Notes: a model not told the origin generated them from the sequence alone. A stretch of DNA of 39,798 nt from Clostridiaceae bacterium (GCA_012718915.1 JAAYBI010000063.1:1-39798); one strand, 5' to 3'. Positions 2,473-25,589 are shown, counted from the first letter of the stretch. Numbers and translations: made by a program.

Positions 2473-4052
2473 ACCTCGTCAGGAATAATTTTTAACTCGA
2501 ATATATTGAGATCGGAGGACTCGTCCTTTTCAATCGTACGAAAACGGCTCATGAACCGATCACACGAAATTGCGTCAACAAATCCTCTGGCATGTGCCAA
2601 TCCCGGGATCCAAACGACCTCCGATTCGATACACAAAACGAGCAATGAATTCCTGATATGGGAAGGCACTTTCATATCCGTTAAATATCGCCTTAACAAC
2701 TTTCGACCTGCTCCTCCGGCTCGGGAAAAATAATCTCCGGTACGAGGGTGACGAAGCGTTAATCCGCTTAATAACTCTGAAGTGCCAAACCATGTCAGAT
2801 TATTATAAACTACGACATCCAGATTCTCAACGCGTCGAATGTGAACAGAAATAAACATTTGAGGATCTCGAATTTCATAATGACCCTTAATGCGCAACTC
2901 GGATTCGATGGTATGAAAATCATCCAAGCGCATTTCTCCGGTTACTTTTCTATCTGAAATCAACACATGTTTGCCATTTACATTCAACGTTCTTGTCGCA
3001 GATAACGTGAATTTTTCTTGATCCAAAAAATATAATACATCATCGTCGATATGTGCTTCGCGTTTCCCCGAAATGGAAACGAGCAAATTGGATTGCCCGC
3101 TTTGAGCCATTTTGACAAGAGCGGCGATTCGATTTGATCCAAAATCTACGAGGTCTCCAAATGTAGTCTCATATAAAATTCGCAAAACTCGCGAAGACAT
3201 AGCCGGATGCAATTTAAGCCATTCCGAGCAATGAATACCCTTGACGCAATCTATCGTGTCGATGGATATCCTTTTGAAAATCGCTTGAGCTTCACGGTCC
3301 AGGTAAGCCTTATCCGATGCTAAATGTTCCGCCAACCGGCTCAAGGCTAAATCCGGAGATTTGTTTGAAACTTTTTCAATTGCAGGAAAAACGACATGTC
3401 TCCATTGGTTTCGAGTATATTCCAAATCCGCGTTTGATTCGTCAATCGAATAATTTATCTCATTATCAGAAAGATACTGAAGTATCTGATCTTTTCCGAC
3501 GAATATCAACGGACGGACAATTCTATCTTTTCTTATTCCCATGGCACACAACCCGTCCAATCCTGCACCCCGAAAAACGTTCATCATCATGGTCTCTGCA
3601 CGATCTTGACGATGATGTGCCAAAGCAATTCGAACCGTCTTACCATCTGATTCATAATCCCTTGCCAAACGCTCAAAAAAGCGGTGTCTTGCAATTCTTG
3701 CAGCATGCTCTATGCTCATTCCGGATTGCGAGGACATCAGCGGAACATCTTCAGAATCCGAAAAAAATAATATACCTCTCGCCTCACAGTACTCCCGCAC
3801 CAATCTACACTCATACTCTGATGCTTCTTTTCGAATCTGATGATTAAAATGAGCAACCGTCAAAGTATCAAAAATTGTCGCATCTTCCGGTTTATGTTGT
3901 GAAATGCGAAAAAGAAGATCTAAAAGGCACATCGAATCCGGGCCGCCGGATACAGCCGCAACAAGCACATTACAAGACAACAGATCATGCGATTTGACGA
4001 CACGAACAAACGAATCATATAGCGCCATCATTAACCTCTTCCGAGCAAACAA
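2469..4052 (-). CDS. tilS: tRNA(Ile)-lysidine synthetase
   Basis: PP-loop SGGPDSMCLL near the N-terminus. TilS C-terminal domain present. 527 aa. Confidence 0.9.
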   Translation of the reverse strand: MFARKRLMMALYDSFVRVVKSHDLLSCNVLVAAVSGGPDSMCLLDLLFRISQHKPEDATIFDTLTVAHFNHQIRKEASEYECRLVREYCEARGILFFSDSEDVPLMSSQSGMSIEHAARIARHRFFERLARDYESDGKTVRIALAHHRQDRAETMMMNVFRGAGLDGLCAMGIRKDRIVRPLIFVGKDQILQYLSDNEINYSIDESNADLEYTRNQWRHVVFPAIEKVSNKSPDLALSRLAEHLASDKAYLDREAQAIFKRISIDTIDCVKGIHCSEWLKLHPAMSSRVLRILYETTFGDLVDFGSNRIAALVKMAQSGQSNLLVSISGKREAHIDDDVLYFLDQEKFTLSATRTLNVNGKHVLISDRKVTGEMRLDDFHTIESELRIKGHYEIRDPQMFISVHIRRVENLDVVVYNNLTWFGTSELLSGLTLRHPRTGDYFSRAGGAGRKLLRRYLTDMKVPSHIRNSLLVLCIESEVVWIPGLAHARGFVDAISCDRFMSRFRTIEKDESSDLNIFELKIIPDEV

Positions 4053-5624: not shown

Positions 5625-6071
5625 TTACTCGACTGCGGCTACCTGAACCTTGATAGTAACTGACACTTCCGTATGAAGCTTTGCCACGATATCATATACC
5701 CCTATTGCCTTAATAGGATTCTTGATGGTGATGTTTTTCTTATCAACCTTATAACCGGATTTGGCAACAGCAGCGGCAATATCTGACGCTGTTACGGCGC
5801 CATATAATCTGCCGCCTTCTCCGGTCTTCATTTCTAGCTTAAATGTCTGTCCGGAGAGCTTGCTGCCCATCTCTTTACATTCTTCAAGATGTCTTCTGGC
5901 TCGTTCTGCCTGAGCCGCCTTTTTGATTTTGATAGAATTGAGGTTCGAAGGAGTTGCCTCCAAGGCTAAGTCTTTTTTGAAAAGGAAATTTCTGGCATAA
6001 CCGTCATTGACCTCAACGATATCATCGGCTTTCCCCAGTCCTTTAACTTCTTCCAATAAAATAACCTTCAT
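5625..6071 (-). CDS. rplI: 50S ribosomal protein L9
   Basis: [31 protein letters not shown]-terminus. 148 aa. Confidence 0.92.
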
Positions 6072-6215
6072 ATGTGAATGTCGCTCGAAAAACCAACGAG
6101 CGCCTCCTTTCGATAAATAAAATCAGGCACCTTCCGAAGCTCGGATCGATGCCTAATAATTATATACGTTAAAAGTACTTATCGCAAACAAACCGGGTAC
6201 CGTTAGCTGACAAAA

Positions 6216-6479
6216 TCAGTCAACAACGTACGGAAGTAAAGCAACATGTCTCGCGCGCTTGATGGCTATTGTCAGCTCTCTTTGGTGCTTTGCACAGTTG
6301 CCCGTCATACGCTTAGGCAAAATCTTGCCACGTTCTGACGTGAATTTGCGAATGCGACCAATATCTTTGTAGTCAATCGATTCCACCTTGTCTGCACAAA
6401 ATGCGCACACTTTACGGCGTGTACGACGACCTCTCATGCCGCCGCGATCAGAAAAACGCGGTCCTCTATTTTCGGCCAT
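6216..6479 (-). CDS. rpsR: 30S ribosomal protein S18
   Basis: [15 protein letters not shown]...[17 protein letters not shown] motif. 87 aa. Confidence 0.92.
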
Positions 6480-6545
6480 AGTAATTCTCCTTTCAACTCA
6501 ATAAAACCACACTCTTAAAATGTGGAGACGCCGTATTGGCGTAAA

Positions 6546-6992
6546 TTACAAATCAAACGGAAGTGCTGTATCATCATCCATCGTCGGCATAAAAACACTG
6601 TCCGAACCGGCGTTCGAGGACATCGGAGCCGGCGCACTATATGAGCGATCATCAGAGACCGATGAAGCACCGTCCTTGCGAGACTCGAGAAACTCGATTT
6701 CGTCAACGGTAACCTCTGTCACATATACCTTCTTACCATCTTTGTCATCGTAAGAACGTGACTGAAGGCTGCCGATAATTCCAATTCGATGGCCCTTTTG
6801 AAAATACTGACCCAATAACTTGGCCTGTTGTCTCCAGGCGACACAGTTGATGAAGTCCGACTGACGTTCTCCTGATGCTGTCTTGAAACGACGATCGACT
6901 GCTACAGTAAAACTACAAACTTCGACTTGGCTTTGGGTGGTTTTCACTTCGGGATCACGGGTTAGTCTTCCGACCAGAATGACTTTGTTCAT
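6546..6992 (-). CDS. ssb: single-stranded DNA-binding protein
   Basis: OB-fold N-terminus MNKVILVGRLTRDPE. Gly/Ser-rich linker and acidic C-terminal DDD...PF tail. AAAGGAG RBS. Confidence 0.92.
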   Translation of the reverse strand: MNKVILVGRLTRDPEVKTTQSQVEVCSFTVAVDRRFKTASGERQSDFINCVAWRQQAKLLGQYFQKGHRIGIIGSLQSRSYDDKDGKKVYVTEVTVDEIEFLESRKDGASSVSDDRSYSAPAPMSSNAGSDSVFMPTMDDDTALPFDL

Positions 6993-7010
6993 ACAATTAC
7001 TCCTTTTTGA

Positions 7011-7298
7011 TTACGCATCTTTACGGATAACAAGAAAACGCAACACGCCTTCGGTAATCTTAAGTACACGCTCAATCTCTTTCGGGTAGTCAGCTTCTGA
7101 AGTAAAGTTGAACAAAAGATAAAAACCGTCTTTCTGATCATCAATCTCGTAAGCCATACGCTTCATGCCCATTGTCTCCATTGATTCAAGGGTAGCACCG
7201 GCCTCGACCTTTGATTTCACCGTTTCAGTGGTAGCAGCAATGCCTTCTTCACCGAGAACAGGACTCAGAACAACGATCATCTCATACTTGTTTGCCAT
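7011..7298 (-). CDS. rpsF: 30S ribosomal protein S6
   Basis: MANKYEMIVVLSP start preceded by a GGAGGAGG RBS. The listed ORF is extended 15 codons upstream of the real ATG. Confidence 0.9.
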   Translation of the reverse strand: MANKYEMIVVLSPVLGEEGIAATTETVKSKVEAGATLESMETMGMKRMAYEIDDQKDGFYLLFNFTSEADYPKEIERVLKITEGVLRFLVIRKDA

Positions 7299-7326
7299 GG
7301 AAATTTCACCTCCTCCTGGACTAAAC

Positions 7327-7415
7327 GGCCCTTGAACGATCAAGGGCGAGGATTAATTACGAAACCGCATCCTTTGCGGCACGAAAAAGAATATCACACC
7401 ACCATAGGCACGTCA
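7327..7415 (-). promoter_or_regulatory. rpsF promoter (TTGACG / TATTCT-like) plus a ~80-nt structured leader with two hairpins: GCCCTTGA-loop-TCAAGGGC at 7328-7347 just upstream of the RBS, and CCGCA-loop-TGCGG at 7365-7379
   Basis: Inverted repeats read directly from the sequence. Their position immediately 5' of the rpsF RBS matches the placement of the S6:S18 autoregulatory leader known in other bacteria. Confidence 0.35.
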
Positions 7416-15747: not shown

Positions 15748-16956
15748 TCATTTAATCGAAGTCACTATTTCCGGAAATGGCGCTATCGCGCGATCTAATA
15801 TGCCATTTGCATATGCAATAAATACACCGTAATTGGTAATCGGGATTTGACGTTGAGTCGAAAGCGTCGTTCGATAATGCATTTCTTTTTCGTTGAGCAT
15901 ACAGCCACCACAATGAATAATCATGTCGTAAATATCAATTCGTTTGGGGAAGGTCGATCCTGATGCCCACTCGAGTTGAATACCCTCACTCGCAACCATT
16001 TTTATCCACTTCGGAATCTTTACAGTTGCGATATCATCCATTTGCTTATGATGTGTACATGCTTCCACAATCAATACACGGCTCCCTTGCTTCAGGTTTT
16101 TTATTTGTCGAACGCCTGATACCATTTCTTTTAAATTCGACTTCTGCCTGGCAAATAGTATCGAAAATGAGGTTAACGGAACCTCGGCAGAAATTCGTTG
16201 CTCGACATACCCAAAAGCTTGGGAATCTGTAATGACAATATTCGGAGGATTCTTAAGCTTAGAAATGACGCGTTCGAGCTCGGTTTCACGAGTCACGACG
16301 GGAATCGCTCCAATGTCCAGAATATCTCTGATGGTTTGTTGCTGAGGCAAAATCAGCCTGCCTTTAGGAGCAGCCGAATCTATTGGTGTAACTAAGACCG
16401 CCGTATCGTATGGTCTTAAAACCCCACTTATCAGCGACGGTGATTCGGCTTGACGACCGGACGACTCGATAATTCGTTGTTTTAGTTTTGATATGCCTTC
16501 GATATTTTTCGCGCTAACAAACACAGGGGAAAAAAGCATGGTAATATCATCGACCTGGAAGCCGGTATCCGATTTATTCACGACAACAGAAAAGGGGACT
16601 TTCCGTTCCCGAATTTCGTCAATTAGCGACTGTTCTAAGGTCGTAATGCCTTTCTCATCTGTTACCACTAAAACATAATCCGTCCGCCTTAGTACTTCTC
16701 TAGATTTTTCTACTCGCATTGTTCCAAGTTCGCCGTCATCGTCGAGTCCGGCGGTATCAACAAAGACTACCGGTCCGATCGGCAACATCTCCATCGCCTT
16801 GGAAACAGGATCTGTCGTCGTGCCCGCCACATCTGATACAACGGACGCGCTCTGCCCCGTAAGCGCATTTACAAGTGAAGACTTTCCGACATTTCTTCTT
16901 CCGAATATGCCGATGACAAACCTCTTGGAAATCGGGGTTGCATTTATATCTTGCAT
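15748..16956 (-). CDS. hydF: [FeFe]-hydrogenase maturation GTPase HydF
   Basis: G1 GRRNVGKSS, G4 NKSD. C-terminal Fe-S ligands CTHH...HCGGC. Confidence 0.85.
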   Translation of the reverse strand: MQDINATPISKRFVIGIFGRRNVGKSSLVNALTGQSASVVSDVAGTTTDPVSKAMEMLPIGPVVFVDTAGLDDDGELGTMRVEKSREVLRRTDYVLVVTDEKGITTLEQSLIDEIRERKVPFSVVVNKSDTGFQVDDITMLFSPVFVSAKNIEGISKLKQRIIESSGRQAESPSLISGVLRPYDTAVLVTPIDSAAPKGRLILPQQQTIRDILDIGAIPVVTRETELERVISKLKNPPNIVITDSQAFGYVEQRISAEVPLTSFSILFARQKSNLKEMVSGVRQIKNLKQGSRVLIVEACTHHKQMDDIATVKIPKWIKMVASEGIQLEWASGSTFPKRIDIYDMIIHCGGCMLNEKEMHYRTTLSTQRQIPITNYGVFIAYANGILDRAIAPFPEIVTSIK

Positions 16957-16992
16957 ATCTAACCTTTCTTCACGCAGTAGTAGACTATGTTT

Positions 16993-18081
16993 TCAATCTG
17001 ATTTTCGCTCTCGAAAATCGAAATGATCCCCGCGAGACATTTCCGCACTTAACCCTAGATCGTGAATCTGATTTATCAGAAACCTGACGTTCTCCGCTGC
17101 TTCCGTCGACGATGACAGTTTTCCGTCATATATGGCATAGGCGTCTCGATATTTCTGCGGAGTCAGGCACGGCATCACAACATTTGCACCCGCGCGAAAT
17201 GCATCTGCTCGATGCTGAATGTCACATGAGGCCAGTGCTGTCGTGGCCGGGAGCATCACATTGGGAAGCATTATTCGGCACAACGCCGTCAAAACCAAAG
17301 TATGATCGACTGAACCATAAGGAAATTTCGCGAACCTCGTATTGATATGGGGACGAAACGGACCTAATCCAATCATGTGCGGAGAGAGCTCCCTTAAGAA
17401 CAGAAAGTCTTCCGTCAATGTATCAACACTTTGATAAGGAGATCCGACCATCAATCCGGCACCAACCTGATATCCAATCCGTTTCATCGTCTCAAGGCTC
17501 TTCCGGCGTATTGAGAAGTGCTGATTGGCATCGTGTAGTTTTGAAAAATGTTCTTCATCAGCGGTCTCATGCCTTAAAAGAAATCGGTCCGCCCCGGCTT
17601 GATAAAGTTGTAAATACTGTTCCGAATTCAGAACACCAACACTTAGAGTCAATGCGATATCCGAAAATAAACTTTTGATACTGAACACGAGCTCGGAAAG
17701 ACGGCCGGCCAAATAGTACGGATCTTCTCCGCTTTGCAAGACAAAGCTTCGAAATCCCATAGCATACCCGTTACGGATAACTTGAACGATCTCTTGTTCT
17801 GTCATCCGATAACGAACCGCCTTCCTGTTCCGCACTGAAAGACCACAATAGAAGCAGTCGTTTCGACAAAAACTACTAAACTCAATCAAACCGCGCAGAA
17901 AAACTCTGGGACCGTCATTTGAGTCGCGCACTCGCCTCGCCATAGAATAAAGATCTTCTTTATCCTCATTTGTCGACATATTCAGGTAGAAATCAATCAG
18001 ATCTTTCATCTCACTTCTATCTGCACCTAACAACAAGGCCTCATTCGGAACATCTTTATTTTTCATAAGGTTTACCCTCAA
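16993..18081 (-). CDS. hydE: [FeFe]-hydrogenase maturation radical-SAM protein HydE
   Basis: CRNDCFYCGL radical SAM motif. BioB-like. About 350 aa. Confidence 0.8.
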   Translation of the reverse strand: MRVNLMKNKDVPNEALLLGADRSEMKDLIDFYLNMSTNEDKEDLYSMARRVRDSNDGPRVFLRGLIEFSSFCRNDCFYCGLSVRNRKAVRYRMTEQEIVQVIRNGYAMGFRSFVLQSGEDPYYLAGRLSELVFSIKSLFSDIALTLSVGVLNSEQYLQLYQAGADRFLLRHETADEEHFSKLHDANQHFSIRRKSLETMKRIGYQVGAGLMVGSPYQSVDTLTEDFLFLRELSPHMIGLGPFRPHINTRFAKFPYGSVDHTLVLTALCRIMLPNVMLPATTALASCDIQHRADAFRAGANVVMPCLTPQKYRDAYAIYDGKLSSSTEAAENVRFLINQIHDLGLSAEMSRGDHFDFRERKSD

Positions 18082-18083
18082 AA

Positions 18084-19535
18084 TCAGAATCGAAGATCGC
18101 GCTCTCCCTTTTCAATTCGACGGATCATCGCCTGAGTCTTCTCAAAGGCATCTCCTTTCAGATTATTTAGATGCTCTGCAAGAACACGTTCGCCCTCCAA
18201 TCGGGTCTCATCTGTCGCATAATCAAGAAGATACTCCTTGAAAGTCAAAACTGCATTTGGAATACAGTAATTGTGTACGAATTTCGATTTTGCGACCTTC
18301 ATGAAATGCTCTCCGGTCCGGCCTGCGCGATAACAAGCCGTGCAAAATGACGGAATATTTCCCATTTCACAAATCTGACCTACAACATCATCGAGAGAAC
18401 GTGAATCTCCGATAGTGAATTGCTCTTTGTCCGGCAACATATTTGCATGTTTTGCGTGTGAGTAAGCACCCACACCAATTCTCGTCCCTGCATCTATCTG
18501 CGAGACACCCAGAGGAATAACTGACTCTCTGACCTGAGCCGATTCTCGTGCAGTGCAAATCAACCCGGTATAAGGCACCGACAGACGCAGAATCGCAATT
18601 ATGCGTTTGAAATCATCATCGTTGACAGCATAATCCGGATTGAGAGAAAATGGAGTATCCGTCGCCGGAGTAATCCTCGGAAAAGAAATGGTATGCGGAC
18701 CAACACCGTTAAAATGCTTTTCGAGGTGCATCGTATGCATCAATAGAGCCATCAATTCAAACCGCCAATCATATAAACCAAAAAGCACGCCCAGTCCACA
18801 GTCATCAAGACCCGCCTTGAGCGCACGATCCATGGCATACAGTCTCCAACGATAGTGCCCTTTAATTGTTCCTTGTGGATGAACGCTTTCGTAAGTCTTT
18901 CTGTGGTATGTCTCTTGGAAGACCTGGAAGGTTCCGATGCCGACTTCCTTCAGTTTTTTTAGTTCGTCGATCGCCAACGGAGCACAATTAATATTCGCTC
19001 GTCGAATTTCACCGTTTTCCGTCTTGACTTCATAAACTTTCCGAACTGATTCACACATGAAATCCACGTTAGTCTTCGGAGATTCCCCATAGACCAGTAC
19101 CGTTCGTTTTTGCCCCTCATCAATCATTATTTGAACTTCTTCTTCAATTTCCTGCATATTCAATGTCTTACGATGAATTGCGACATTACTGCTCCGAAAA
19201 CCGCAATACTTACAATTATTCGCACACTCATCGCTGATATAGAGCGGCGCAAAAAATACAATTCGATCACCATATACTTCCTTCTTGAGTTCGAATGCCA
19301 CTCCAAACATCTCTTGAATGGTGTCCGGATCGTTATTACCGATTAGAATTGCCATTTCATCCAAATCTAATCTTATGCAATTTCGTGATTTCTCCAGGAC
19401 TCGGCGCACCTCATCACGTCCGGGATTTTTATTAGCATCTAGTAGTGAATGGATTAACTCCTCATCAATAAAATCTTTCTCCATGGCATCCAATACATCG
19501 AACTCATCTTGATATTTGTTTAAATAACGCATCAC
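18084..19535 (-). CDS. hydG: [FeFe]-hydrogenase maturation radical-SAM protein HydG
   Basis: CANNCKYCGF radical SAM motif. ThiH-like with C-terminal CTACYR...C cluster motif. 483 aa. Confidence 0.85.
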   Translation of the reverse strand: MMRYLNKYQDEFDVLDAMEKDFIDEELIHSLLDANKNPGRDEVRRVLEKSRNCIRLDLDEMAILIGNNDPDTIQEMFGVAFELKKEVYGDRIVFFAPLYISDECANNCKYCGFRSSNVAIHRKTLNMQEIEEEVQIMIDEGQKRTVLVYGESPKTNVDFMCESVRKVYEVKTENGEIRRANINCAPLAIDELKKLKEVGIGTFQVFQETYHRKTYESVHPQGTIKGHYRWRLYAMDRALKAGLDDCGLGVLFGLYDWRFELMALLMHTMHLEKHFNGVGPHTISFPRITPATDTPFSLNPDYAVNDDDFKRIIAILRLSVPYTGLICTARESAQVRESVIPLGVSQIDAGTRIGVGAYSHAKHANMLPDKEQFTIGDSRSLDDVVGQICEMGNIPSFCTACYRAGRTGEHFMKVAKSKFVHNYCIPNAVLTFKEYLLDYATDETRLEGERVLAEHLNNLKGDAFEKTQAMIRRIEKGERDLRF

Positions 19536-19552
19536 AAATCGTCCTCCAAAAT

Positions 19553-19807
19553 CTATTTATCAACCGACTTAGTAATCATTGACTTGACAGAAATTCCCTT
19601 AACTCTACCAAGCGCACCGGTCATCGCGCTGATTTGATCATTCGTCCCATCAACAATTAACGAAATAACAGCAACATTTTTTTCGCGAAAAGGAAGACCC
19701 ATCCTCCCAACAATTCGGTCCGAAAATCGATGCAATACATCATTAACCTTCTCAACACTGTCTTTCTCCTCAATGACTATTCCAACAATAGCAATTCGAT
19801 TGTCCAT
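19553..19807 (-). CDS. small TM1266-like putative iron-only hydrogenase system regulator (ACT/NikR-C-like)
   Basis: About 85-aa protein immediately upstream of hydG in the same orientation. Real start is the ATG at 19807 (MDNRIAIVGIV) behind a GGAGGG RBS. Confidence 0.55.
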   Translation of the reverse strand: MDNRIAIVGIVIEEKDSVEKVNDVLHRFSDRIVGRMGLPFREKNVAVISLIVDGTNDQISAMTGALGRVKGISVKSMITKSVDK

Positions 19808-19984
19808 AATACCCTCCAACAAAAAATCCCCGCCCGCAAAAGCAGACGAGGATCAAAACGCACAAGCAAGGAACCGAAAATCGGTTCATAGACTTCCCGC
19901 TCAGAAAACTGCTTCACGGTTAGAAAAAATAGTACATACGATTGCACTCCGAGAGAAGAACTCAGGCAACACAAGCGCAAAAAG

Positions 19985-20153: not shown

Positions 20154-20354
20154 TTACTTTTGTTCCATTCTCTTCTTGAACTTATCAACACGTCCGCCGG
20201 TATCGATAAGCTTCTGCTTGCCGGTATAGAACGGGTGACACTTCGAGCAAATGTCAACACTGTAGCTCGCGCTGGTTGATGTCGTCTCAAAAGACTCGCC
20301 ACAGGCGCACTTCACAGTAACTTTCTCTGTCTTGGGATGGATGCCCTCTTTCAT
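20154..20354 (-). CDS. rpmE: 50S ribosomal protein L31
   Basis: [19 protein letters not shown]...[24 protein letters not shown]. The listed ORF has a spurious 20-codon 5' extension. Confidence 0.92.
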
Positions 20355-20484
20355 TTTCTCACCTCTCATCAAAGATTCGACGCGTAACGTAAAATGTGTC
20401 GATACGTATGCCAAACCAGATTATCTAACGCAAAAGTATGCTACTACACAAACGCCTTACTGTCAATTGATTTCAGAAATATCC

Positions 20485-21954
20485 TCAGTTGTCTGTGGTC
20501 ATGTCTATCTTTTTCGGCGGCCTAAGTCTTTGTGCTTGAGAATATCGATTTTCCGGTTCAGACTGAAGATTATTAACATTCGGGTTAAGCTCTTCAGCCG
20601 CTTTAGACTCTAAAGCCTTAGCTATGGAAGAAGACGGCATAACCTTTGCGATTATCGGAACTACAAGCGGAGCGATCAATGATTTGATCCTCAGAAATAA
20701 TAATGTAATCGAATGAACCAATTTCTCTAACTGTTCACCTACAAATACTATTGCTATTTTCGTAAGCGATTCCTTTTCTTGCTTCTCTCTACGTTTATTG
20801 ATCGAATTATAAACACTAACAGCTACTGCTAATAATATGAGCCAAAAGAAAAACACCCAACTCTTGTCTTTGGCAGGCGAGATACTTGATTCGATTCCTA
20901 AAGATCCGAGACCATCTCCACCTCCAGCTCCGGAATCGTTGATTATACCCATAACAGCCGGGTCATTGTCGTCATTATCGGAATCAGAGGATTTAGAAGA
21001 TTGCGACGACACGCCCGATTCCGAACCATTCATTTGAAACGTTGATGTATCTTCGAAATGATCAGTCCCATCAACATCGGCTCCCGAATCCTGTTCTGCG
21101 GAGTCAGGAAAAGACTCGTTGGTAACCGGAGAAGAAGGATTTGTCATTGTCGGTTGAGTTTCATCGGTATTATCCTCTGTATCAGATACAGGAGTTGTTG
21201 TCGGTATTACAGGCTCCGAACTCTCTTTTGGAACCGAAGTAGATTCCGGCACTGTCGGCTCCGCAACAGGCTGAATAACAACCGGTGTCGGCTGAGCAGT
21301 GGGCAGAACGGTAGGTGCCGATGTAGCCACAGGAGTCGGTATAGGGGATGGAATAGACGTCGGTATTGTCGTTGGTATTGTCGTCGGCGTCGGTGATGGC
21401 GTCGGTGATGGCGTCGGCGTTGACTTAGGCGTTGGTGGTGGTGGCGGTGGTGGCGGTGGTGGCGGTGGTGGCGTAGACTTAGGCGTTGGTGTTGGAGTCG
21501 GCGTTGATACATTTCGATCTGCGCTTGCCGATTTAACCTTAACGCTGTTCCCAGTCGGAGACGTCGTCACCAGCTGAAATCCGATGCTATCATCATGCGC
21601 CCCCGATGAAATCGTCGAATTATAGCCACAAGGAGTGACAATCAATTTTCCGGAAGAATCGATTAGAAATGAGCCATTCCAGCTGCTCTGAATGGAAGCG
21701 TCGGAAGGCACAGAAATCTCAACCTTCCAATTGATGATGTCAAAAGTATTGCTATTAGTTATTTTGAGCGCGTACTGTGTAACCTGTTTCCCATCGCTAT
21801 CCCAACTATTTACCTTGGTCAGGGAAGTGCCGATAGACTCGCTGGCTTCTATCGGCATACGAAAAGAGAAAGCCATAAGAATAGCCGCTATAACAATTAT
21901 CAATAAGCGTTTAGTTATAGAACCAGACTGATATGCCACACATTTCCCATTCAT
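20485..21954 (-). CDS. type-I membrane-anchored surface protein: signal peptide, CBM2-like carbohydrate-binding domain, Pro/Thr linker with Pro14, acidic/Ser-rich segment, one TM helix, ~110-aa cytoplasmic tail
   Basis: Segment VNSWDSDGKQVTQYALKITNSNTFDIINWKVEISVP...SSWNGS...GFQLVTTSPTG follows the CBM2 pattern W..G...V.NT....W...F.....WN....G....GF. TM helix WVFFFWLILLAVAVSVYNSI is followed by NKRREKQEK. No catalytic domain. No LPXTG. Confidence 0.55.
   Translation of the reverse strand: MNGKCVAYQSGSITKRLLIIVIAAILMAFSFRMPIEASESIGTSLTKVNSWDSDGKQVTQYALKITNSNTFDIINWKVEISVPSDASIQSSWNGSFLIDSSGKLIVTPCGYNSTISSGAHDDSIGFQLVTTSPTGNSVKVKSASADRNVSTPTPTPTPKSTPPPPPPPPPPPPPTPKSTPTPSPTPSPTPTTIPTTIPTSIPSPIPTPVATSAPTVLPTAQPTPVVIQPVAEPTVPESTSVPKESSEPVIPTTTPVSDTEDNTDETQPTMTNPSSPVTNESFPDSAEQDSGADVDGTDHFEDTSTFQMNGSESGVSSQSSKSSDSDNDDNDPAVMGIINDSGAGGGDGLGSLGIESSISPAKDKSWVFFFWLILLAVAVSVYNSINKRREKQEKESLTKIAIVFVGEQLEKLVHSITLLFLRIKSLIAPLVVPIIAKVMPSSSIAKALESKAAEELNPNVNNLQSEPENRYSQAQRLRPPKKIDMTTDN
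21300..21500. repeat. coding tandem repeats: (GGTGGTGGC)n 9-bp units plus two copies of GACTTAGGCGTTGGTG, encoding the Pro14/PT linker on the opposite strand
   Basis: Repeat units directly visible at 21431-21475. Flanking GTCGGTGATGGC repeats are also present. Confidence 0.8.
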
Positions 21955-22096
21955 TGAAATTCTACCTCACAACCATCATTGATAATGATATTTCTAGGTT
22001 ATGGACATACGTCTTCGATTTGGTATGCCTTATACTTTTTGTGAAACGCATAACTCCAAATATGTCATAAAACAGGATAAAATAATCCAGAGAGCA

Positions 22097-23077
22097 TCAA
22101 CCCGTGATCACTCGGTCTTTTCCGGCTTTCTTTGCTTCATACATGCAATTATCCGCACGCGCAATAAATTCGGAAAGCATCTCGTTTTGATATTGGCTGA
22201 TTCCGGCACTTGCCGTAACACGAAAACCCTGCTCGTATTGGAAATCTCGAACTTTCGAAAGGATACGACGCATCACTTTCTCGGCATCACTTTTCTTGGT
22301 TTGAGAAAAAACCACCAGATACTCTTCACCGCCATATCTTCCAACCATATCCGTCTCTCGCACGGAGTCGGCAATAATCTGGGCCGTTTGTCTCAATACT
22401 TCGTCTCCGACTACATGGCCGTATTGATCATTAACCTTCTTAAAGTCGTCAATATCAACCATCGCAATGGAAAGCGGTTGCTTCGTCTGAATCGAAACCG
22501 CTGTTTGATCGTTGAGAAATTCAACAACTGCACGATGATTGAAAATACCTGTCACTTCGTCTTTGCGCGTTTTTTCAAGAAGCACCCTATTGTCTTGCTC
22601 AAGCTGCTTGAGCTTTTCTTTGCGATCGGTAATGTCAAAGACAATTCCTGCAACAAACAACGGCCTCCCGGATTTATCTCGCTTTGTGATACTGCCGCGA
22701 TCATAAAACCATCGATATGATTCATCTTTACACCGAACACGATACTCAACCTCGTATACCTTTGCGCCATGATACATATGATTAAGCATCGCCGTCATAG
22801 TTGCTTCATGATCATCAGGATGGAGTCTGTCCGTAAAAAATTGATAAGTCAGCGGGTTCGGAATCTCACTCATCTCAAAGCCCAAGGCTTGAACCTTGTG
22901 CGGATTGCAGATGACTTTGTTGCTCGGAACGTGCCAGTACCAGTGGCCGAGATTGCCTGTCCATGCATAATTCAGATCTGTAGATTGTCTTTGCTCGGAG
23001 AGAAGCTGCTCATTAAGAATTTTCAGTTCAGAAGCAACCTCGATAAGTTCTTCTTTGCTCATTGAAGTGTAATCCAT
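22097..23077 (-). CDS. PAS-GGDEF diguanylate cyclase
   Basis: N-terminal PAS-like region and a C-terminal GGDEF domain with an intact RYGGEEY active-site motif. No TM segments, so it is cytoplasmic. Confidence 0.8.
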   Translation of the reverse strand: MDYTSMSKEELIEVASELKILNEQLLSEQRQSTDLNYAWTGNLGHWYWHVPSNKVICNPHKVQALGFEMSEIPNPLTYQFFTDRLHPDDHEATMTAMLNHMYHGAKVYEVEYRVRCKDESYRWFYDRGSITKRDKSGRPLFVAGIVFDITDRKEKLKQLEQDNRVLLEKTRKDEVTGIFNHRAVVEFLNDQTAVSIQTKQPLSIAMVDIDDFKKVNDQYGHVVGDEVLRQTAQIIADSVRETDMVGRYGGEEYLVVFSQTKKSDAEKVMRRILSKVRDFQYEQGFRVTASAGISQYQNEMLSEFIARADNCMYEAKKAGKDRVITG

Positions 23078-23162
23078 ATTCTTGCCCCCTTCTTGATCGG
23101 CAACCGCCGACCAAAAGACAAAGTATGATTACATCTTATCGTATTTTTAATAAAATGACACG

Positions 23163-25373
23163 TTATTTATTTGAATTTCCATTCGCGTTATTGACCGTAC
23201 TCGTTCCCGCAGGGCGAGTGCCGCGCATCGCTTCAAATACTGCTTTATCATTAAAAGAAACATTCACGGACTGAACAAATTGCTGATTACTCTGCGTTTT
23301 AAGCAATAGATTTATTATCATCTCCGTGACGGCCGTCGTATCCAATTGACCGAACGCTTTTCGGATACTCCACACTGCATCAAGCTCCTTGTCCGAAAGA
23401 AGTAACTCCTCACGCCTTGTTCCTGACTTATTAATATCAATCGCCGGGAATATCCGCTTCTCAGAAAGCTTTCGATCCAAGTATACTTCCATATTGCCGG
23501 TTCCCTTGAACTCTTCAAATATAACCTCATCCATTCGCGAGCCGGTATCGATTAAAGACGTTGCAATAATAGTAAGGCTGCCACCGTTTTCTATATTACG
23601 AGCTGCCCCGAAAAAGCGCTTTGGTCCGTACAGCGCTCCGGGATCTAGTCCGCCTGACAGTGTTCTTCCTGTAGGGTTAATCGTCAAGTTGTAAGCTCTG
23701 GACAACCGCGTCATCGAATCCAGTAATATGACAACATCCTGACCTAGCTCAACCAGGCGCATAGCACGCTCCAAGACTAATTCAACGATCTTTGTATGAT
23801 TCTCCGGTTTTTTGTCAAATGTAGAATACACGACCTCGCCATTAATCGATCTTTGCATATCCGTGACTTCTTCAGGACGCTCATCAATCAGTAATACTAT
23901 TAGTTTGGTATCCGGATTATTGATCGAAATAGCATTGGCAATCTTCTGTAACAGGATTGTTTTTCCTGCCTTTGGCGGAGAAACAATCATCCCTCTCTGT
24001 CCTTTTCCGATAGGCGCGATTAAGTCGATAATCCGAGTGGATAACTCAATTTTGTGTGTTTCAAGAACATATCTCTCGTCGGGATATATTGGTGTTAATT
24101 TATCAAAATGCGGCCTACGCATCATTTTCTCGGGGGGCAAGCCATTAACCTCTTTAATGTATTGTAATGGCGCATACTTATCCGAATCCTTCTTCATTCG
24201 AACCGGACCGGTGATCTGGTCTCCTGTTCGAAGATTAAACCTCCGAATGTAATTGCTGTGAAGAAAAACATCCCCTGCAGAAGGAAGGTAATTTTCCGTA
24301 CGCAAAAATCCAAACCCTTCGGACATAATTTCCAGAATGCCGGTAACCACGACCGGTTCAGGTTCTTTTCGCTTGAGTGTTACAGGCGCAGCATCTTTAA
24401 TTATGTCACCGGTCTCCGCTTCTGCTGAAGAAAAGGCGGCATCTTCATTTTCGGAATTGCGACTCTCATTTTGAGGTGTGATGATTACCGAACGCTTTCT
24501 GCCGCGAGAGCGTTTGAGCTTAGACGGCGCCGAACTCGACCGCACCACAGAACCATCGCTTGAAACCACCGAATCTTCGCGCTCAGCGCTTGTTTCAATA
24601 TCATCAGCAGGTTGCACGCGGTTTATTTCTTCAATTGGCGGCTGAAGAGTTCCGGTTTGACCATCATTGTCAGTCACCGTAACATCAGCCGTTGACTCAG
24701 GCAATTTGTCACTAACCGGCAGCTCATGAGCTGAATCCTTCTTGTCAGGCTTAGGCTTGATGATTTTGCTTGTTCGAGAACGAGAAGAATGTTTATCACT
24801 CGCCTTTTCAGCCGCGACAGAGGTTGAATTCTCTTGAGTTATTAATTCCTGAGGTTCGCTCTGAGAAACTTCTTTCGTCTCGATATCAACGGATGTCGGT
24901 TCAATCATTGGCTTTCGACTTGTTTTGCGCGTTCTCGAAGCTACGGTTTGCATCGGTTTGATGTTTTCTGTTAGCGGAGATTCTGATTTAGCCGTCTCCG
25001 AAGATTTCTCCGTACGCGTGTTTTGATTGGCGGAAGAATCTTTTGAAGTCTTCACTTTATTTGCCGAGGTGGCTTTCTTGGGCGTCTTCTCGATCGGTTT
25101 CGAAGTGGTTTTCTTGTTGCTTGTTTTGATAACAGAATCTGGAGTATCTGACGCGAGAATCTGCGGGTCACCTGCAGGCTTAATCTCTGAGTCTGCTTGA
25201 CGATTATCCGAATTCTTGGAAAATGAATCGCTTACCTGCTGCGAAGCAAGGTATAGAACAAGAGAATCTTTAGTCATCGCAGTCGCCTTAGATTCGGTTA
25301 ACAGGCCAAACTGAACCGCAATTGAAACAAGATCTTTCTTTTTTTTCGCAGAAAAATGGGTCTTGAAGTCCAT
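23163..25373 (-). CDS. rho: transcription termination factor Rho with ~300-aa disordered N-terminal insertion domain
   Basis: C-terminal ~420 aa is canonical Rho: RNA-binding FGFLR region and Walker [18 protein letters not shown]. The N-terminus has a Rho_N-like start followed by a K/S/T/E/D-rich low-complexity region. 736 aa in total. Confidence 0.9.
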
Positions 25374-25589
25374 ATAATACCCCTACTTACATAAAAATGA
25401 GACAAACAGAAACGCGCTCACGATCAAATGATCAAACGGCAAGATAACTTACTCGCGAAAATCGGAAACAAATAAAAAAAGCAAATATAGTACTCACAAT
25501 CAAGAAAATAATAAGCCAAAGATGGCAAGAAATAATGAATCGTGGTTATTATAAATCCGTCCGGCTACATTCGTCAATACAAAATAGAG

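What the first reader, a model, noticed from the sequence alone, without database searches (positions are those of the whole stretch)
20485..23077. PAS-GGDEF cyclase immediately upstream of a membrane-anchored CBM2-like, Pro14-containing surface protein
The downstream gene encodes a signal peptide, a single CBM2-like carbohydrate-binding module, a Pro/Thr linker with 14 consecutive prolines, a TM helix and a ~110-aa cytoplasmic tail. It has no enzymatic domain and no sortase motif. That topology (CBM outside, tail inside) resembles a polysaccharide sensor or adhesin rather than a glycoside hydrolase. Its position directly after an active (GGEEY) cytoplasmic diguanylate cyclase suggests a c-di-GMP-linked substrate-attachment or sensing pair.
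Basis: inference. Interest (0 to 1): 0.58.

Follow-up and report, generated by a model that had tools for sequence, protein, structure and literature searches.

The report
Membrane-anchored cellulose-binding-module surface protein
A biogas-reactor Clostridia bacterium carries a rare non-enzymatic surface protein that holds one cellulose/chitin-type binding module on a long stalk, but its position next to a c-di-GMP cyclase looks like a lineage-specific insertion, not a proven functional pair.

Summary
Both genes lie on the minus strand: a soluble PAS_3-GGDEF protein (22097-23077; GGEEY motif, RxxD I-site) and, 142 bp downstream, a 489-aa protein (20485-21954). That protein has a signal peptide, one CBM2 domain, a ~216-aa Pro/Thr then acidic stalk, one TM helix and a 103-aa tail. 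CBM2 is confirmed by Pfam (34 bits, cutoff 24), a pLDDT 94 model and a top Foldseek match to C. cellulovorans EngD CBM2. Corrections: 13 prolines, not 14, and the tract is absent from the only orthologue.

The c-di-GMP pairing is not supported. Four more distant relatives carry the orthologous cyclase in the same rho-dgc-rpmE slot with no CBM gene. The CBM gene occurs in only two sister species and sits exactly between the cyclase stop and a conserved rpmE promoter/leader. I found no c-di-GMP riboswitch, no PilZ, I-site or MshEN motif, and no terminator between the two genes.

The architecture is rare: one other representative among 1.84 billion. The tail has two conserved motifs, notably the last 23 residues (91% identical, synonymous sites saturated), which suggests a cytoplasmic partner.

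Best reading: a non-catalytic substrate tether, possibly also a sensor. Interest is modest.

The parts
23163..25373 (-). rho (736 aa, with a ~340-aa low-complexity N-terminal extension); upstream anchor of the conserved backbone
   Evidence: Pfam Rho_RNA_bind 1.4e-27 and ATP-synt_ab 3.9e-23. rho precedes the cyclase in L007, L089, L091, L095 and L096.
22097..23077 (-). Soluble PAS_3-GGDEF protein (putative diguanylate cyclase), 326 aa
   Evidence: Pfam and NCBIfam hits. Identical to NLT11909.1, 'MAG Clostridiaceae bacterium'. 1805 family members at E<=1e-20. 86% identical to the sister species, dN/dS ~0.03.
22640..22912 (-). PAS_3 sensor domain (res 56-146). The nearby family hallmark WTGNLGHWYW lies at res 39-48, just N-terminal to this Pfam span
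   Evidence: Pfam PAS_3 2.8e-18; invariant columns in alignment A1.
22112..22561 (-). GGDEF catalytic domain (res 173-322)
   Evidence: Pfam GGDEF 9.7e-40; PDB hits 6et7, PleD and WspR at E 1e-30 to 1e-21.
22319..22333 (-). Active-site motif GGEEY (res 249-253). The family consensus is GGEEF; F253Y is shared only with the sister species
22349..22360 (-). RETD = RxxD inhibitory site, five residues upstream of the GGEEY motif
   Evidence: R240 and D243 are invariant in the 32-sequence family alignment.
21955..22096 (-). 142-bp cyclase-CBM spacer. No terminator-like site, no riboswitch, poorly conserved; GAGG ribosome-binding site 10 nt before the ATG
   Evidence: Fold z-score -0.16. The sister species has TTGACT-17-TAGTAT about 30 nt upstream of its start codon.
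20485..21954 (-). 489-aa non-catalytic CBM2 surface protein (signal peptide, CBM2, stalk, TM helix, tail)
   Evidence: Found on 17 contigs. One orthologue, P0122, 47% identical overall.
21844..21954 (-). Signal peptide (res 1-37; n-region charge +3, h-region res 17-31, likely cleavage at IEA|SE)
   Evidence: Hydropathy and charge. The same layout is present in P0122. The cleavage site is inferred.
21547..21813 (-). CBM family 2 module (Pfam res 48-136; block conserved with the orthologue res 38-149). Candidate binding aromatics W51, W92 and Y111
   Evidence: (W51, W76, W92 invariant and N112 nearly invariant in 47 sequences). dN/dS ~0.13.
21205..21507 (-). Pro/Thr-rich linker (res 150-250)
   Evidence: Composition 35% P, 20% T. 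48% identical to the orthologue, with indels.
21433..21471 (-). Pro13 tract (res 162-174), encoded by (CCA CCA CCG)x3 plus CCAx4. It lies in a 20-residue gap relative to the orthologue, so it is not conserved
20869..21204 (-). Acidic Ser/Asp/Thr-rich low-complexity segment (res 251-362, net charge -21); second half of the stalk
   Evidence: 35% identical to the orthologue.
20797..20859 (-). Transmembrane helix (res ~366-386)
   Evidence: Kyte-Doolittle peak 2.2. AlphaFold helix at res 365-391. Flanking charges follow the positive-inside rule.
20725..20802 (-). Conserved juxtamembrane motif INxRREKQEKESLxKIAxVFxGEQLE (res 385-410)
   Evidence: Alignments A2 and A3. The TM plus juxtamembrane block is 67% identical.
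20488..20556 (-). Conserved C-terminal motif PENxYSQAQRLRPPKKIDMxTDN (res 467-489). Predicted disordered, so a candidate docking peptide
   Evidence: 91% identical; pN 0.037 against pS 0.76. Alignment. Low pLDDT and no secondary structure.
20355..20466 (-). rpmE promoter (TTGACA-17-TAGCAT) and ~85-nt structured leader; downstream boundary of the insertion
   Evidence: about 93-95% identical to the sister species; present in relatives that lack the CBM gene; hairpin that sequesters the Shine-Dalgarno sequence, 3 compensatory pairs.
20154..20354 (-). rpmE (ribosomal protein L31, 66 aa from the ATG at 20354)
   Evidence: Pfam Ribosomal_L31 5.1e-32; the gene is called as 66 aa in the relatives.

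Best explanation
The 489-aa product is a non-catalytic, type-I membrane-anchored surface protein.

Proposed mechanism:
- It is exported through its Sec signal peptide and stays in the membrane through the single C-terminal TM helix.
- The ~216-residue Pro/Thr-rich then acidic Ser/Asp-rich stalk is up to about 65 nm if fully extended. That is long enough to cross a Gram-positive wall (inferred).
- The stalk presents one family-2 carbohydrate-binding module. This module binds an insoluble beta-glycan through a flat aromatic strip, W51/W92/Y111. Cellulose is the most likely ligand; chitin is not excluded.
- The effect is to tether the cell to plant fibre in anaerobic digesters.
- The 103-aa cytoplasmic tail is more than a stop-transfer anchor. 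Its juxtamembrane helix and its last 23 residues are conserved, so it probably docks an unidentified cytoplasmic partner for localisation or signalling.

The upstream PAS-GGDEF gene is a resident of the conserved rho-dgc-rpmE housekeeping locus. The CBM gene was inserted there in the ancestor of two sister species. Adjacency is therefore most likely positional, not evidence of a dedicated c-di-GMP module.

Shown here: domain identities, the CBM2 fold, the architecture, purifying selection, and the synteny pattern. Inferred: the ligand, signal-peptide cleavage, wall spanning, and the role of the tail.
For: CBM2 identity:
- Pfam above the gathering score and a PDB sequence hit to 3ndy_E.
- pLDDT 94.4 model whose 14 best Foldseek PDB hits are CBM2 domains, or chitinases carrying a CBM2-like chitin-binding domain.
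- Aromatic and Asn positions are invariant or nearly so across 47 relatives.

Ligand lead: the nearest sequence relatives of the module are fused to GH5 cellulases (P0134, P0135, P0140, P0144, P0172, P0177, P0188).

Real, selected gene:
- Found on 17 contigs.
- CBM dN/dS ~0.13; C-terminal 23 residues pN 0.037 against pS 0.76.

Topology.

No enzyme domain, LPxTG or lipobox.

Insertion into a conserved backbone:
- rho-dgc-rpmE without the CBM gene in L007, L089/L090, L091 and L095.
- The rpmE promoter and leader are conserved on the downstream side in all of them.
- The CBM gene is found only in the window species and its sister.

Habitat: the sister-species contig belongs to a biogas-reactor assembly.
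Against: - No binding data exist, and CBM2 members bind cellulose, chitin or xylan (hit list).
- A simple tether does not need a 103-aa tail with a near-invariant terminus. Other C-terminally TM-anchored CBM2 proteins among the hits have short tails (about 16-26 residues after the last hydrophobic segment by the window heuristic: P0177, P0238). This leans towards a signalling role.
- The cyclase-CBM pair is retained in both species that have the CBM gene, with no terminator between the genes, so functional coupling is not excluded.
- Only two species are available, so conservation statistics are thin.
- Insertion versus loss is inferred by parsimony from four outgroup loci.
Confidence: 0.55

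Rival explanations
1. Transmembrane polysaccharide or contact sensor. The CBM2 engages fibre, the long stalk acts as a spring or spacer, and the conserved cytoplasmic tail relays contact to a cytoplasmic partner. The logic resembles RsgI anti-sigma sensors or the yeast Wsc1 wall sensor, but in N-out/C-in orientation.
For: - The tail has two strongly conserved motifs separated by a fast-evolving spacer (17% identity). The last 23 residues are 91% identical while synonymous sites are saturated.
- The tail is much longer than in other TM-anchored CBM2 proteins.
- CBM-tipped single-pass sensors are established in cellulolytic clostridia: the RsgI literature, PMC10328401 and PMC6852018.
Against: - The tail has no recognisable signalling domain.
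- No tail homologue was found apart from the sister species.
- The AlphaFold model of the tail is low-confidence (pLDDT 59).
- No sigma factor, kinase or regulator gene is dedicated to it in the neighbourhood.
- Topology is opposite to RsgI, and there is no RsgI_N domain.
Confidence: 0.25
2. One reading: a dedicated c-di-GMP pair. Either the PAS-GGDEF cyclase controls production or activity of the CBM protein, or the CBM protein's tail controls the cyclase. Attachment would then be c-di-GMP-dependent.
For: - The genes are adjacent on the same strand, 142 bp apart, with no terminator-like site between them in either species.
- The pair is retained in both species that carry the CBM gene.
- The cyclase keeps the invariant family residues and the I-site and is under strong purifying selection.
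Against: - The cyclase occupies the same rho-rpmE slot in four relatives that lack any CBM gene.
- None of the 80 loci kept from the GGDEF-pattern scan of genome contigs carries a CBM2-like ORF.
- There is no c-di-GMP-I or -II riboswitch in the window or the spacer.
- The tail has no PilZ, RxxD or MshEN motif.
- The spacer is poorly conserved, and the sister species has its own promoter-like site in front of the CBM gene.
- The activity of the GGEEY variant is undocumented; no literature was found.
Confidence: 0.12
3. The module binds something other than plant cellulose, for example chitin, or a glycan of the cell's own envelope or of neighbouring cells. The protein would then be a chitin- or cell-cell-directed adhesin, or an envelope organiser.
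For: Many of the structural matches are chitin-binding CBM2 domains: Pyrococcus ChiA, S. coelicolor Chi18aC, B. thuringiensis ChiA74 and C. perfringens chitinases.
Against: - The closest sequence relatives of the module are attached to GH5 cellulases, not chitinases.
- The best structural and sequence match is the CBM2 of endoglucanase EngD.
Confidence: 0.08

Closest known systems
CBM family 2 modules of clostridial and actinobacterial glycoside hydrolases (C. cellulovorans EngD CBM2, PDB 3NDY; C. fimi Cex CBD, PDB 1EXG)
   Same: - Same fold: Foldseek TM 0.68/0.75 and rmsd 2.1 A to 3ndy_E.
- Pfam CBM_2 above the gathering score.
- The NSW / xxW / (W/Y)N aromatic positions are conserved.
   Different: - It is not attached to any catalytic domain.
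- It sits at the N-terminus of a membrane-anchored protein.
- It has only one Cys, so it lacks the terminal disulfide that I recall for actinobacterial CBM2a.
- The third aromatic residue is Tyr, as in EngD, not Trp.
Secreted non-catalytic CBM2 proteins and C-terminally TM-anchored GH5-CBM2 enzymes found in the exhaustive search (e.g. P0126, tandem CBM2; P0177, CBM2-GH5-TM)
   Same: The same CBM2 subfamily (25-40% identity), an N-terminal signal peptide and, in P0177, a low-complexity stalk plus a C-terminal TM anchor.
   Different: - Those proteins are either soluble, multi-CBM or enzymatic.
- Their post-TM tails are short (P0177 ends ...LRLRVKKGK).
- The window protein has one CBM, no enzyme domain and a 103-aa tail with conserved motifs. 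Only P0122 shares this.
RsgI-type anti-sigma-I polysaccharide sensors of Clostridium thermocellum
   Same: A single-pass membrane protein that exposes a CBM at the end of a long disordered or PT-rich extracellular segment. This is a possible outside-to-inside signalling logic (PMC10328401, PMC6852018, PMC9732909).
   Different: - Opposite topology: RsgI is N-in/C-out with a C-terminal sensor.
- No RsgI_N anti-sigma domain and no adjacent sigI gene.
- No folded juxtamembrane autoproteolytic domain was detected.
Yeast cell-wall integrity sensor Wsc1 (analogy only, from my own knowledge)
   Same: The order of parts is the same: signal peptide, small glycan-binding head, long Ser/Thr-rich stalk, single TM helix, ~100-aa cytoplasmic tail with short docking motifs.
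   Different: There is no sequence or fold relationship. The head is CBM2, not a WSC domain. The organism is a bacterium, and there is no evidence of signalling.
c-di-GMP-regulated clostridial adhesins (C. difficile CD2831/CD3246 type; from my own knowledge)
   Same: A surface protein in a Clostridia genome with a c-di-GMP enzyme nearby.
   Different: Those adhesins are sortase-anchored (LPxTG-like signals) and controlled by c-di-GMP riboswitches. Neither feature is present here.

Membership tests
CBM family 2 (Pfam PF00553) | Sequence match to the family profile above the curated threshold | tested here: met
   34.2 bits against a gathering score of 24, E=3.2e-8, res 48-136. The orthologue P0122 scores 39.6 bits. 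CBM49 is sub-threshold (17.5 against 23.4). There is no CBM_3 hit.
CBM family 2 (Pfam PF00553) | Beta-sandwich fold superposable on solved CBM2 structures | tested here: met
   AlphaFold pLDDT 94.4, nine strands. Top Foldseek PDB hits are 3ndy_E, 6qfs, 2cwr, 2rtt, 6f7e and 1exg, at E 3e-6 to 2e-4.
CBM family 2 (Pfam PF00553) | Conserved surface aromatic residues that form the ligand-binding strip | tested here: inconclusive
   W51, W92 and Y111 align with W, W and Y of EngD CBM2. W51, W76 and W92 are invariant and N112 is nearly invariant in 47 relatives.
CBM family 2 (Pfam PF00553) | Binding to insoluble cellulose, chitin or xylan | not testable with these tools
   Needs pull-down or ITC with the recombinant ectodomain.
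GGDEF diguanylate cyclase | GGDEF domain profile match | tested here: met
   Pfam 136.4 bits, TIGR00254 152 bits. PDB diguanylate cyclases at E 1e-30 to 1e-21.
GGDEF diguanylate cyclase | Canonical active-site motif GG(D/E)EF | tested here: inconclusive
   The motif is GGEEY. The first four residues are canonical and the fifth is F to Y. The family consensus is GGEEF. Y is shared with the sister species. No literature on this variant was found.
GGDEF diguanylate cyclase | Other conserved catalytic-domain residues, and the RxxD I-site five residues upstream | tested here: met
   D208, D210, N216, D217, D225, R247, K316 and R240/D243 are invariant across the 32 family members and present in the window protein. 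Assigning roles to individual residues rests on my knowledge of PleD and WspR.
GGDEF diguanylate cyclase | c-di-GMP synthesis from GTP | not testable with these tools
   Needs an enzyme assay, comparing wild type with Y253F and with a GGAAY mutant.
c-di-GMP effector or c-di-GMP-controlled gene (PilZ, MshEN, I-site-type receptors; c-di-GMP-I/II riboswitches) | A known c-di-GMP-binding motif or domain in the CBM protein's tail | tested here: not met
   The tail has no RxxxR, [DN]xSxxG, RxxD or MshEN core motif. There is no PilZ or other Pfam/NCBIfam hit.
c-di-GMP effector or c-di-GMP-controlled gene (PilZ, MshEN, I-site-type receptors; c-di-GMP-I/II riboswitches) | A c-di-GMP riboswitch in the 5' leader of the CBM gene | tested here: not met
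   Rfam at gathering scores over the whole window finds only a tRNA. In E-value mode on 21850-22200 only two chance-level hits appear. The leader folds no better than shuffled sequence, z = -0.16.
Conserved functional gene pair (cyclase + CBM protein) | Linkage kept across relatives beyond the immediate sister species | tested here: not met
   The pair is present in the window species and one sister species. It is absent from four relatives that keep the cyclase in the same locus and from two in which the cyclase lies elsewhere.
RsgI-type anti-sigma polysaccharide sensor | N-terminal cytoplasmic anti-sigma-I domain and N-in/C-out topology with a C-terminal sensor | tested here: not met
   There is no RsgI_N hit. 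The N-terminus is a signal peptide and the CBM is N-terminal.
RsgI-type anti-sigma polysaccharide sensor | Cognate sigI gene adjacent | tested here: not met
   The neighbours are rho, the cyclase, rpmE and hyd maturation genes.
Sortase-anchored LPxTG surface protein | C-terminal LPxTG-like motif followed by a hydrophobic segment and a short basic tail | tested here: not met
   There is no [LN]Px[TSA][GNSA] motif anywhere in the protein, and the tail is 103 aa.

The most novel reading that the evidence does not exclude
The protein is a bacterial single-pass contact or mechano-sensor built like yeast Wsc1: glycan-binding head, spring-like stalk, TM helix, docking tail. When the CBM2 engages cellulose, the near-invariant C-terminal peptide changes its interaction with a cytoplasmic partner, possibly the neighbouring PAS-GGDEF cyclase. 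Fibre contact would then be converted into a c-di-GMP signal.
Probability: 0.08. Interest if true: 0.75.

Novelty: new variant of a known kind. Interest (0 to 1): 0.3.

Why it matters
If the tether reading is right, this is one more way for non-cellulosomal Clostridia in anaerobic digesters to hold on to plant fibre. It uses a plain TM anchor and a wall-spanning stalk instead of sortase, SLH or cohesin-dockerin systems. That is useful for annotation but not surprising.

The more interesting point is the 103-aa tail with a near-invariant terminal peptide. It hints at outside-inside coupling in the opposite orientation to RsgI sensors. The family is so far known from only two species.

The analysis also gives a general caution. 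Adjacency to a GGDEF gene is weak evidence here, because that gene is a fixed resident of the rho-rpmE locus.

Tried and rejected
Searches that returned nothing useful:
- Word-index homologue searches with the N-terminal 149 aa and with the tail found nothing. They missed even P0122, which the exhaustive search later found. These two negatives are therefore weak.
- The exact CBM protein is not in the 15-billion-protein collection, although it is on 17 contigs.
- A genome-contig scan with the CBM protein found no relative among 185,579 species representatives.
- A genome-contig scan with the cyclase alignment returned mostly generic GGDEF loci. Only L007 was informative.
- A metagenome scan with the tail alignment found only the sister species.
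- AlphaFold on the tail with two sequences gave pLDDT 59, so I did no fold search on it.
- Literature searches for a CBM2-TM-tail architecture and for GGEEY or GGDEY variants found nothing relevant.

Ideas considered and rejected:
- Second hydrophobic stretch (res 412-440) as a second TM helix. It contains R and K, and the orthologue has a basic, amphipathic sequence there.
- The C-terminal conservation as an effect of overlapping rpmE promoter DNA. Synonymous sites in those 23 codons are saturated (pS 0.76), so the constraint is on the protein.
- Recent horizontal transfer judged by composition. The gene has 46% GC against 44% for the window.
- The Pro13 tract as a functional hallmark. It is absent from the orthologue and encoded by a short codon repeat.


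Full report
**1. What is in the sequence**

Both genes are on the minus strand. The order there is mreB, rho (23163-25373), PAS-GGDEF (22097-23077), the CBM gene (20485-21954), rpmE (20154-20354), then a TM1266-like gene and hydG/hydE/hydF. The gaps are 85 bp (rho to cyclase), 142 bp (cyclase to CBM gene) and 130 bp (CBM gene to rpmE).

*The cyclase (326 aa)*
- Pfam PAS_3 (E=2.8e-18) and GGDEF (E=9.7e-40).
- No hydrophobic segment, so it is soluble.
- GGEEY at res 249-253 and an RxxD site (RETD, res 240-243) five residues upstream.

*The downstream protein (489 aa)*
- A Sec-type N-terminus.
- A CBM_2 match above Pfam's gathering score (34.2 against 24 bits; res 48-136).
- A Pro/Thr linker (res 150-250), then an acidic Ser/Asp/Thr-rich segment (res 251-362, net charge -21).
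- One strong TM helix (about res 366-386), followed by KRREKQEK.
- A 103-aa tail.
- No catalytic domain, LPxTG motif or lipobox.

The tail is 103 aa, not about 110.

**2. Is the CBM real?**

Yes.
- The protein hits the CBM2 of C. cellulovorans endoglucanase EngD in the PDB by sequence (3ndy_E, E=1.9e-5).
- An AlphaFold model of res 30-150, built on a 47-sequence alignment, has pLDDT 94.4.
- Its best Foldseek PDB hits are all CBM2 domains:
  - 3ndy_E, with TM 0.68/0.75 and rmsd 2.1 A;
  - the C. fimi Cex cellulose-binding domain;
  - the ScLPMO10C CBM2;
  - several chitin-binding CBM2 domains.
- W51, W76 and W92 are invariant and N112 is nearly invariant in the 47 relatives. W51, W92 and Y111 align with the W, W and Y of EngD. 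From my own knowledge, these correspond to the binding aromatics W17, W54 and W72 of Cex.

An exhaustive phmmer search of 1.84 billion representatives gave 335 hits at E<=1e-3. Apart from one orthologue, the closest are of two kinds:
- GH5 cellulases carrying this CBM2 subtype at the N- or C-terminus;
- small secreted proteins with two or three tandem copies.

This is the basis for preferring cellulose or beta-glucan as the ligand. Chitin is not excluded.

**3. How common is the architecture?**

Rare.
- Among the 150 best CBM hits, only P0122 (475 aa) also has the TM helix and tail (local phmmer).
- P0122 is 60% identical in the CBM and 47% identical overall.
- Scans for the tail found only the same sister species: L096, contig LSQX01036184.1, from a biogas-reactor assembly. 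Nothing else turned up.
- The cyclase is annotated in NCBI as coming from a 'Clostridiaceae bacterium' MAG. Its next relatives are labelled Oscillospiraceae MAGs.

**4. Selection along the protein**

I compared the window with L096 by the Nei-Gojobori method. Synonymous sites are saturated throughout (pS about 0.64-0.82).

| Region | Identity to sister species | Notes |
|---|---|---|
| CBM | 60% | dN/dS ~0.13 |
| PT linker | 48% | with indels |
| Acidic segment | 35% | |
| TM + juxtamembrane (INxRREKQEKESLxKIAxVFxGEQLE) | 67% | |
| Middle of tail | 17% | |
| Last 23 residues (PENxYSQAQRLRPPKKIDMxTDN) | 91% | pN 0.037 against pS 0.76 |

- Because synonymous sites differ freely in those last 23 codons, the constraint is on the peptide. 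It is not on overlapping promoter DNA.
- AlphaFold on the tail is low-confidence (pLDDT 59). It shows a TM helix, two further helices and a disordered C-terminus.
- The tail therefore looks like two short conserved motifs on a variable spacer. That pattern is typical of a docking tail, not a folded domain.
- The Pro13 tract falls in a 20-residue gap relative to P0122. It is encoded by (CCA CCA CCG)x3 plus CCAx4. It is a lineage-specific repeat expansion, not a conserved feature.
- The second hydrophobic stretch (res 412-440) is not conserved and is not a TM helix.

**5. Is the cyclase-CBM adjacency meaningful?**

The cyclase belongs to a large, tightly conserved family of about 325 aa.
- It has 1805 hits at E<=1e-20.
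- Members across Clostridia are about 50-55% identical.
- The hallmark is WTGNLGHWYW, the consensus motif is GGEEF, and the RxxD site is invariant.

The context of orthologues is informative.

| Orthologue group | Loci | Context |
|---|---|---|
| 52-55% identical | L089/L090 (P0008), L091 (P0004), L095 (P0011, GCA_028701505.1), L007 | rho, cyclase, rpmE in all four; the longer loci (L089, L091, L095) continue with DUF1385 and prmC (and DUF951, DUF1836 in L089, L095). No gene between cyclase and rpmE, and no hyd cluster in L089, L091 or L095 |
| More distant | P0018, P0023 | Cyclase elsewhere, again without a CBM gene |
| 80 loci kept from the GGDEF-pattern genome scan | L007-L086 | No CBM2-like ORF |

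- The rpmE promoter (TTGACA-17-TAG[C/G]AT) and its leader are conserved in all these loci. In the window they begin about 20 nt after the CBM gene's stop codon.
- So the CBM gene sits exactly between the cyclase stop and the rpmE promoter of an older backbone.
- The most parsimonious reading is an insertion in the common ancestor of the two sister species. Loss in the other lineages cannot be strictly excluded.

*Against a c-di-GMP mechanism*
- No c-di-GMP riboswitch in the window or the spacer.
- The spacer folds no better than shuffled sequence (z = -0.16) and is only about 50% identical between the two species.
- The tail has no PilZ, RxxD or MshEN motif.

*For possible coupling*
- No terminator-like site lies between the genes in either species.
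- The pair is intact in both species that have the CBM gene.

The sister species has a promoter-like TTGACT-17-TAGTAT about 30 nt upstream of its CBM start. The window has none at the same threshold. Co-transcription therefore remains open.

**6. Is the cyclase active?**

- All invariant family residues and the I-site are present.
- dN/dS against the sister species is about 0.03.
- The fifth motif residue is Tyr instead of Phe in both sister species only.
- I found no literature on this variant.
- 'Active' is plausible but untested.

**7. Mechanism**

*Best-supported reading (about 0.55).* A non-catalytic substrate tether.
- Sec exports it and the C-terminal TM helix anchors it.
- A stalk of up to about 65 nm if fully extended crosses the wall (inferred).
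- The distal CBM2 binds insoluble beta-glycan.
- The conserved tail docks an unknown cytoplasmic partner.

*Rivals*
- A true transmembrane sensor (about 0.25). It is favoured by the tail conservation but has no recognisable output domain or dedicated regulator.
- A non-cellulose ligand (about 0.08).

**8. Comparison with known systems**

- The head is a member of CBM family 2. The profile and fold tests are met; binding was not testable.
- The whole protein is not an RsgI-type sensor. It has the opposite topology, no RsgI_N domain and no sigI neighbour.
- It is not a sortase substrate.
- It does not resemble riboswitch-controlled clostridial adhesins.
- It works most like the C-terminally TM-anchored CBM2-GH5 enzymes found in the search (for example P0177), minus the enzyme and plus a long conserved tail.
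- In the order of its parts it resembles yeast Wsc1. This is an analogy only.
- I rate it a new variant of a known kind.

**9. Verdict**

- The adhesin-or-sensor idea is reasonable.
- The c-di-GMP pairing is not supported by comparative context.
- Interest is 0.3. The annotation is solid and the architecture is rare. Nothing here contradicts expectation, and the family is known from only two species.

Noticed in passing
window 20355-20466 (- strand), upstream of rpmE; also L096 6421-6533, L089 ~7000-7120, L095 ~7000-7123, L091 ~3440-3551: The rpmE (L31) promoter and an ~85-nt leader are about 93-95% identical between the window and the sister species, although synonymous sites in the flanking genes are saturated. 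The leader is also conserved in four-locus comparison with relatives about 54% identical in the neighbouring cyclase. RNAalifold predicts a long hairpin (-22.6 kcal/mol, 25 pairs, 3 with compensatory changes). Its outer stem pairs with the GAUGAGAGGUG Shine-Dalgarno region. This is a candidate L31 autoregulatory leader. It has no Rfam match even at E<=10.
   Followed up: partly
window 22097-25373 (- strand) and loci L007, L089, L091, L095, L096: A ~325-aa PAS_3-GGDEF gene sits between rho and rpmE in at least five species of this Clostridia lineage. The family itself is very large and unusually well conserved: 1805 hits, about 50% identity across Clostridia, hallmark WTGNLGHWYW. Why a cyclase is fixed in this housekeeping slot is unexplained.
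   Followed up: partly
window 24350-25373 (- strand), N-terminal ~340 residues of Rho: Rho is 736 aa, with a long Ser/Thr/Lys/Glu-rich low-complexity N-terminal extension before the RNA-binding domain (Pfam domains start at res 344). The sister species has 728 aa and more distant relatives have 610-654 aa. A ~495-bp untranslated region with a promoter-like TTGACG-18-TATAAT (25577..25548) precedes it.
   Followed up: no
window 15748-19822 (- strand): A TM1266-like regulator with hydG, hydE and hydF ([FeFe]-hydrogenase maturation) lies between rpmE and DUF1385 in the window species and its sister. It is absent from that position in L089, L091 and L095. This is a second lineage-specific insertion into the same backbone.
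   Followed up: no
window 21433-21471 (- strand): The 13-proline run is encoded by a short codon repeat, (CCA CCA CCG)x3 plus CCAx4. It is identical in all six retrieved contigs of this species and absent from the sister species. From general knowledge, a run this long should make translation strongly EF-P-dependent.
   Followed up: partly
P0124-P0133 and similar proteins returned (not in the window): Many of the closest CBM2 relatives are ~265-410-aa proteins with an N-terminal hydrophobic anchor or signal (…SVGYSLL…) and two or three tandem CBM2 modules, with no enzyme domain. This is a sizeable, apparently uncharacterised group of non-catalytic CBM2 proteins.
   Followed up: no
window 5625-7343 (- strand): The stretch without long ORFs holds ordinary small genes. 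From their translations I read them as ribosomal proteins L9, S18 and S6 and a single-strand DNA-binding protein, next to a DnaB-like helicase (identified by eye, not searched). Nothing unusual.
   Followed up: yes
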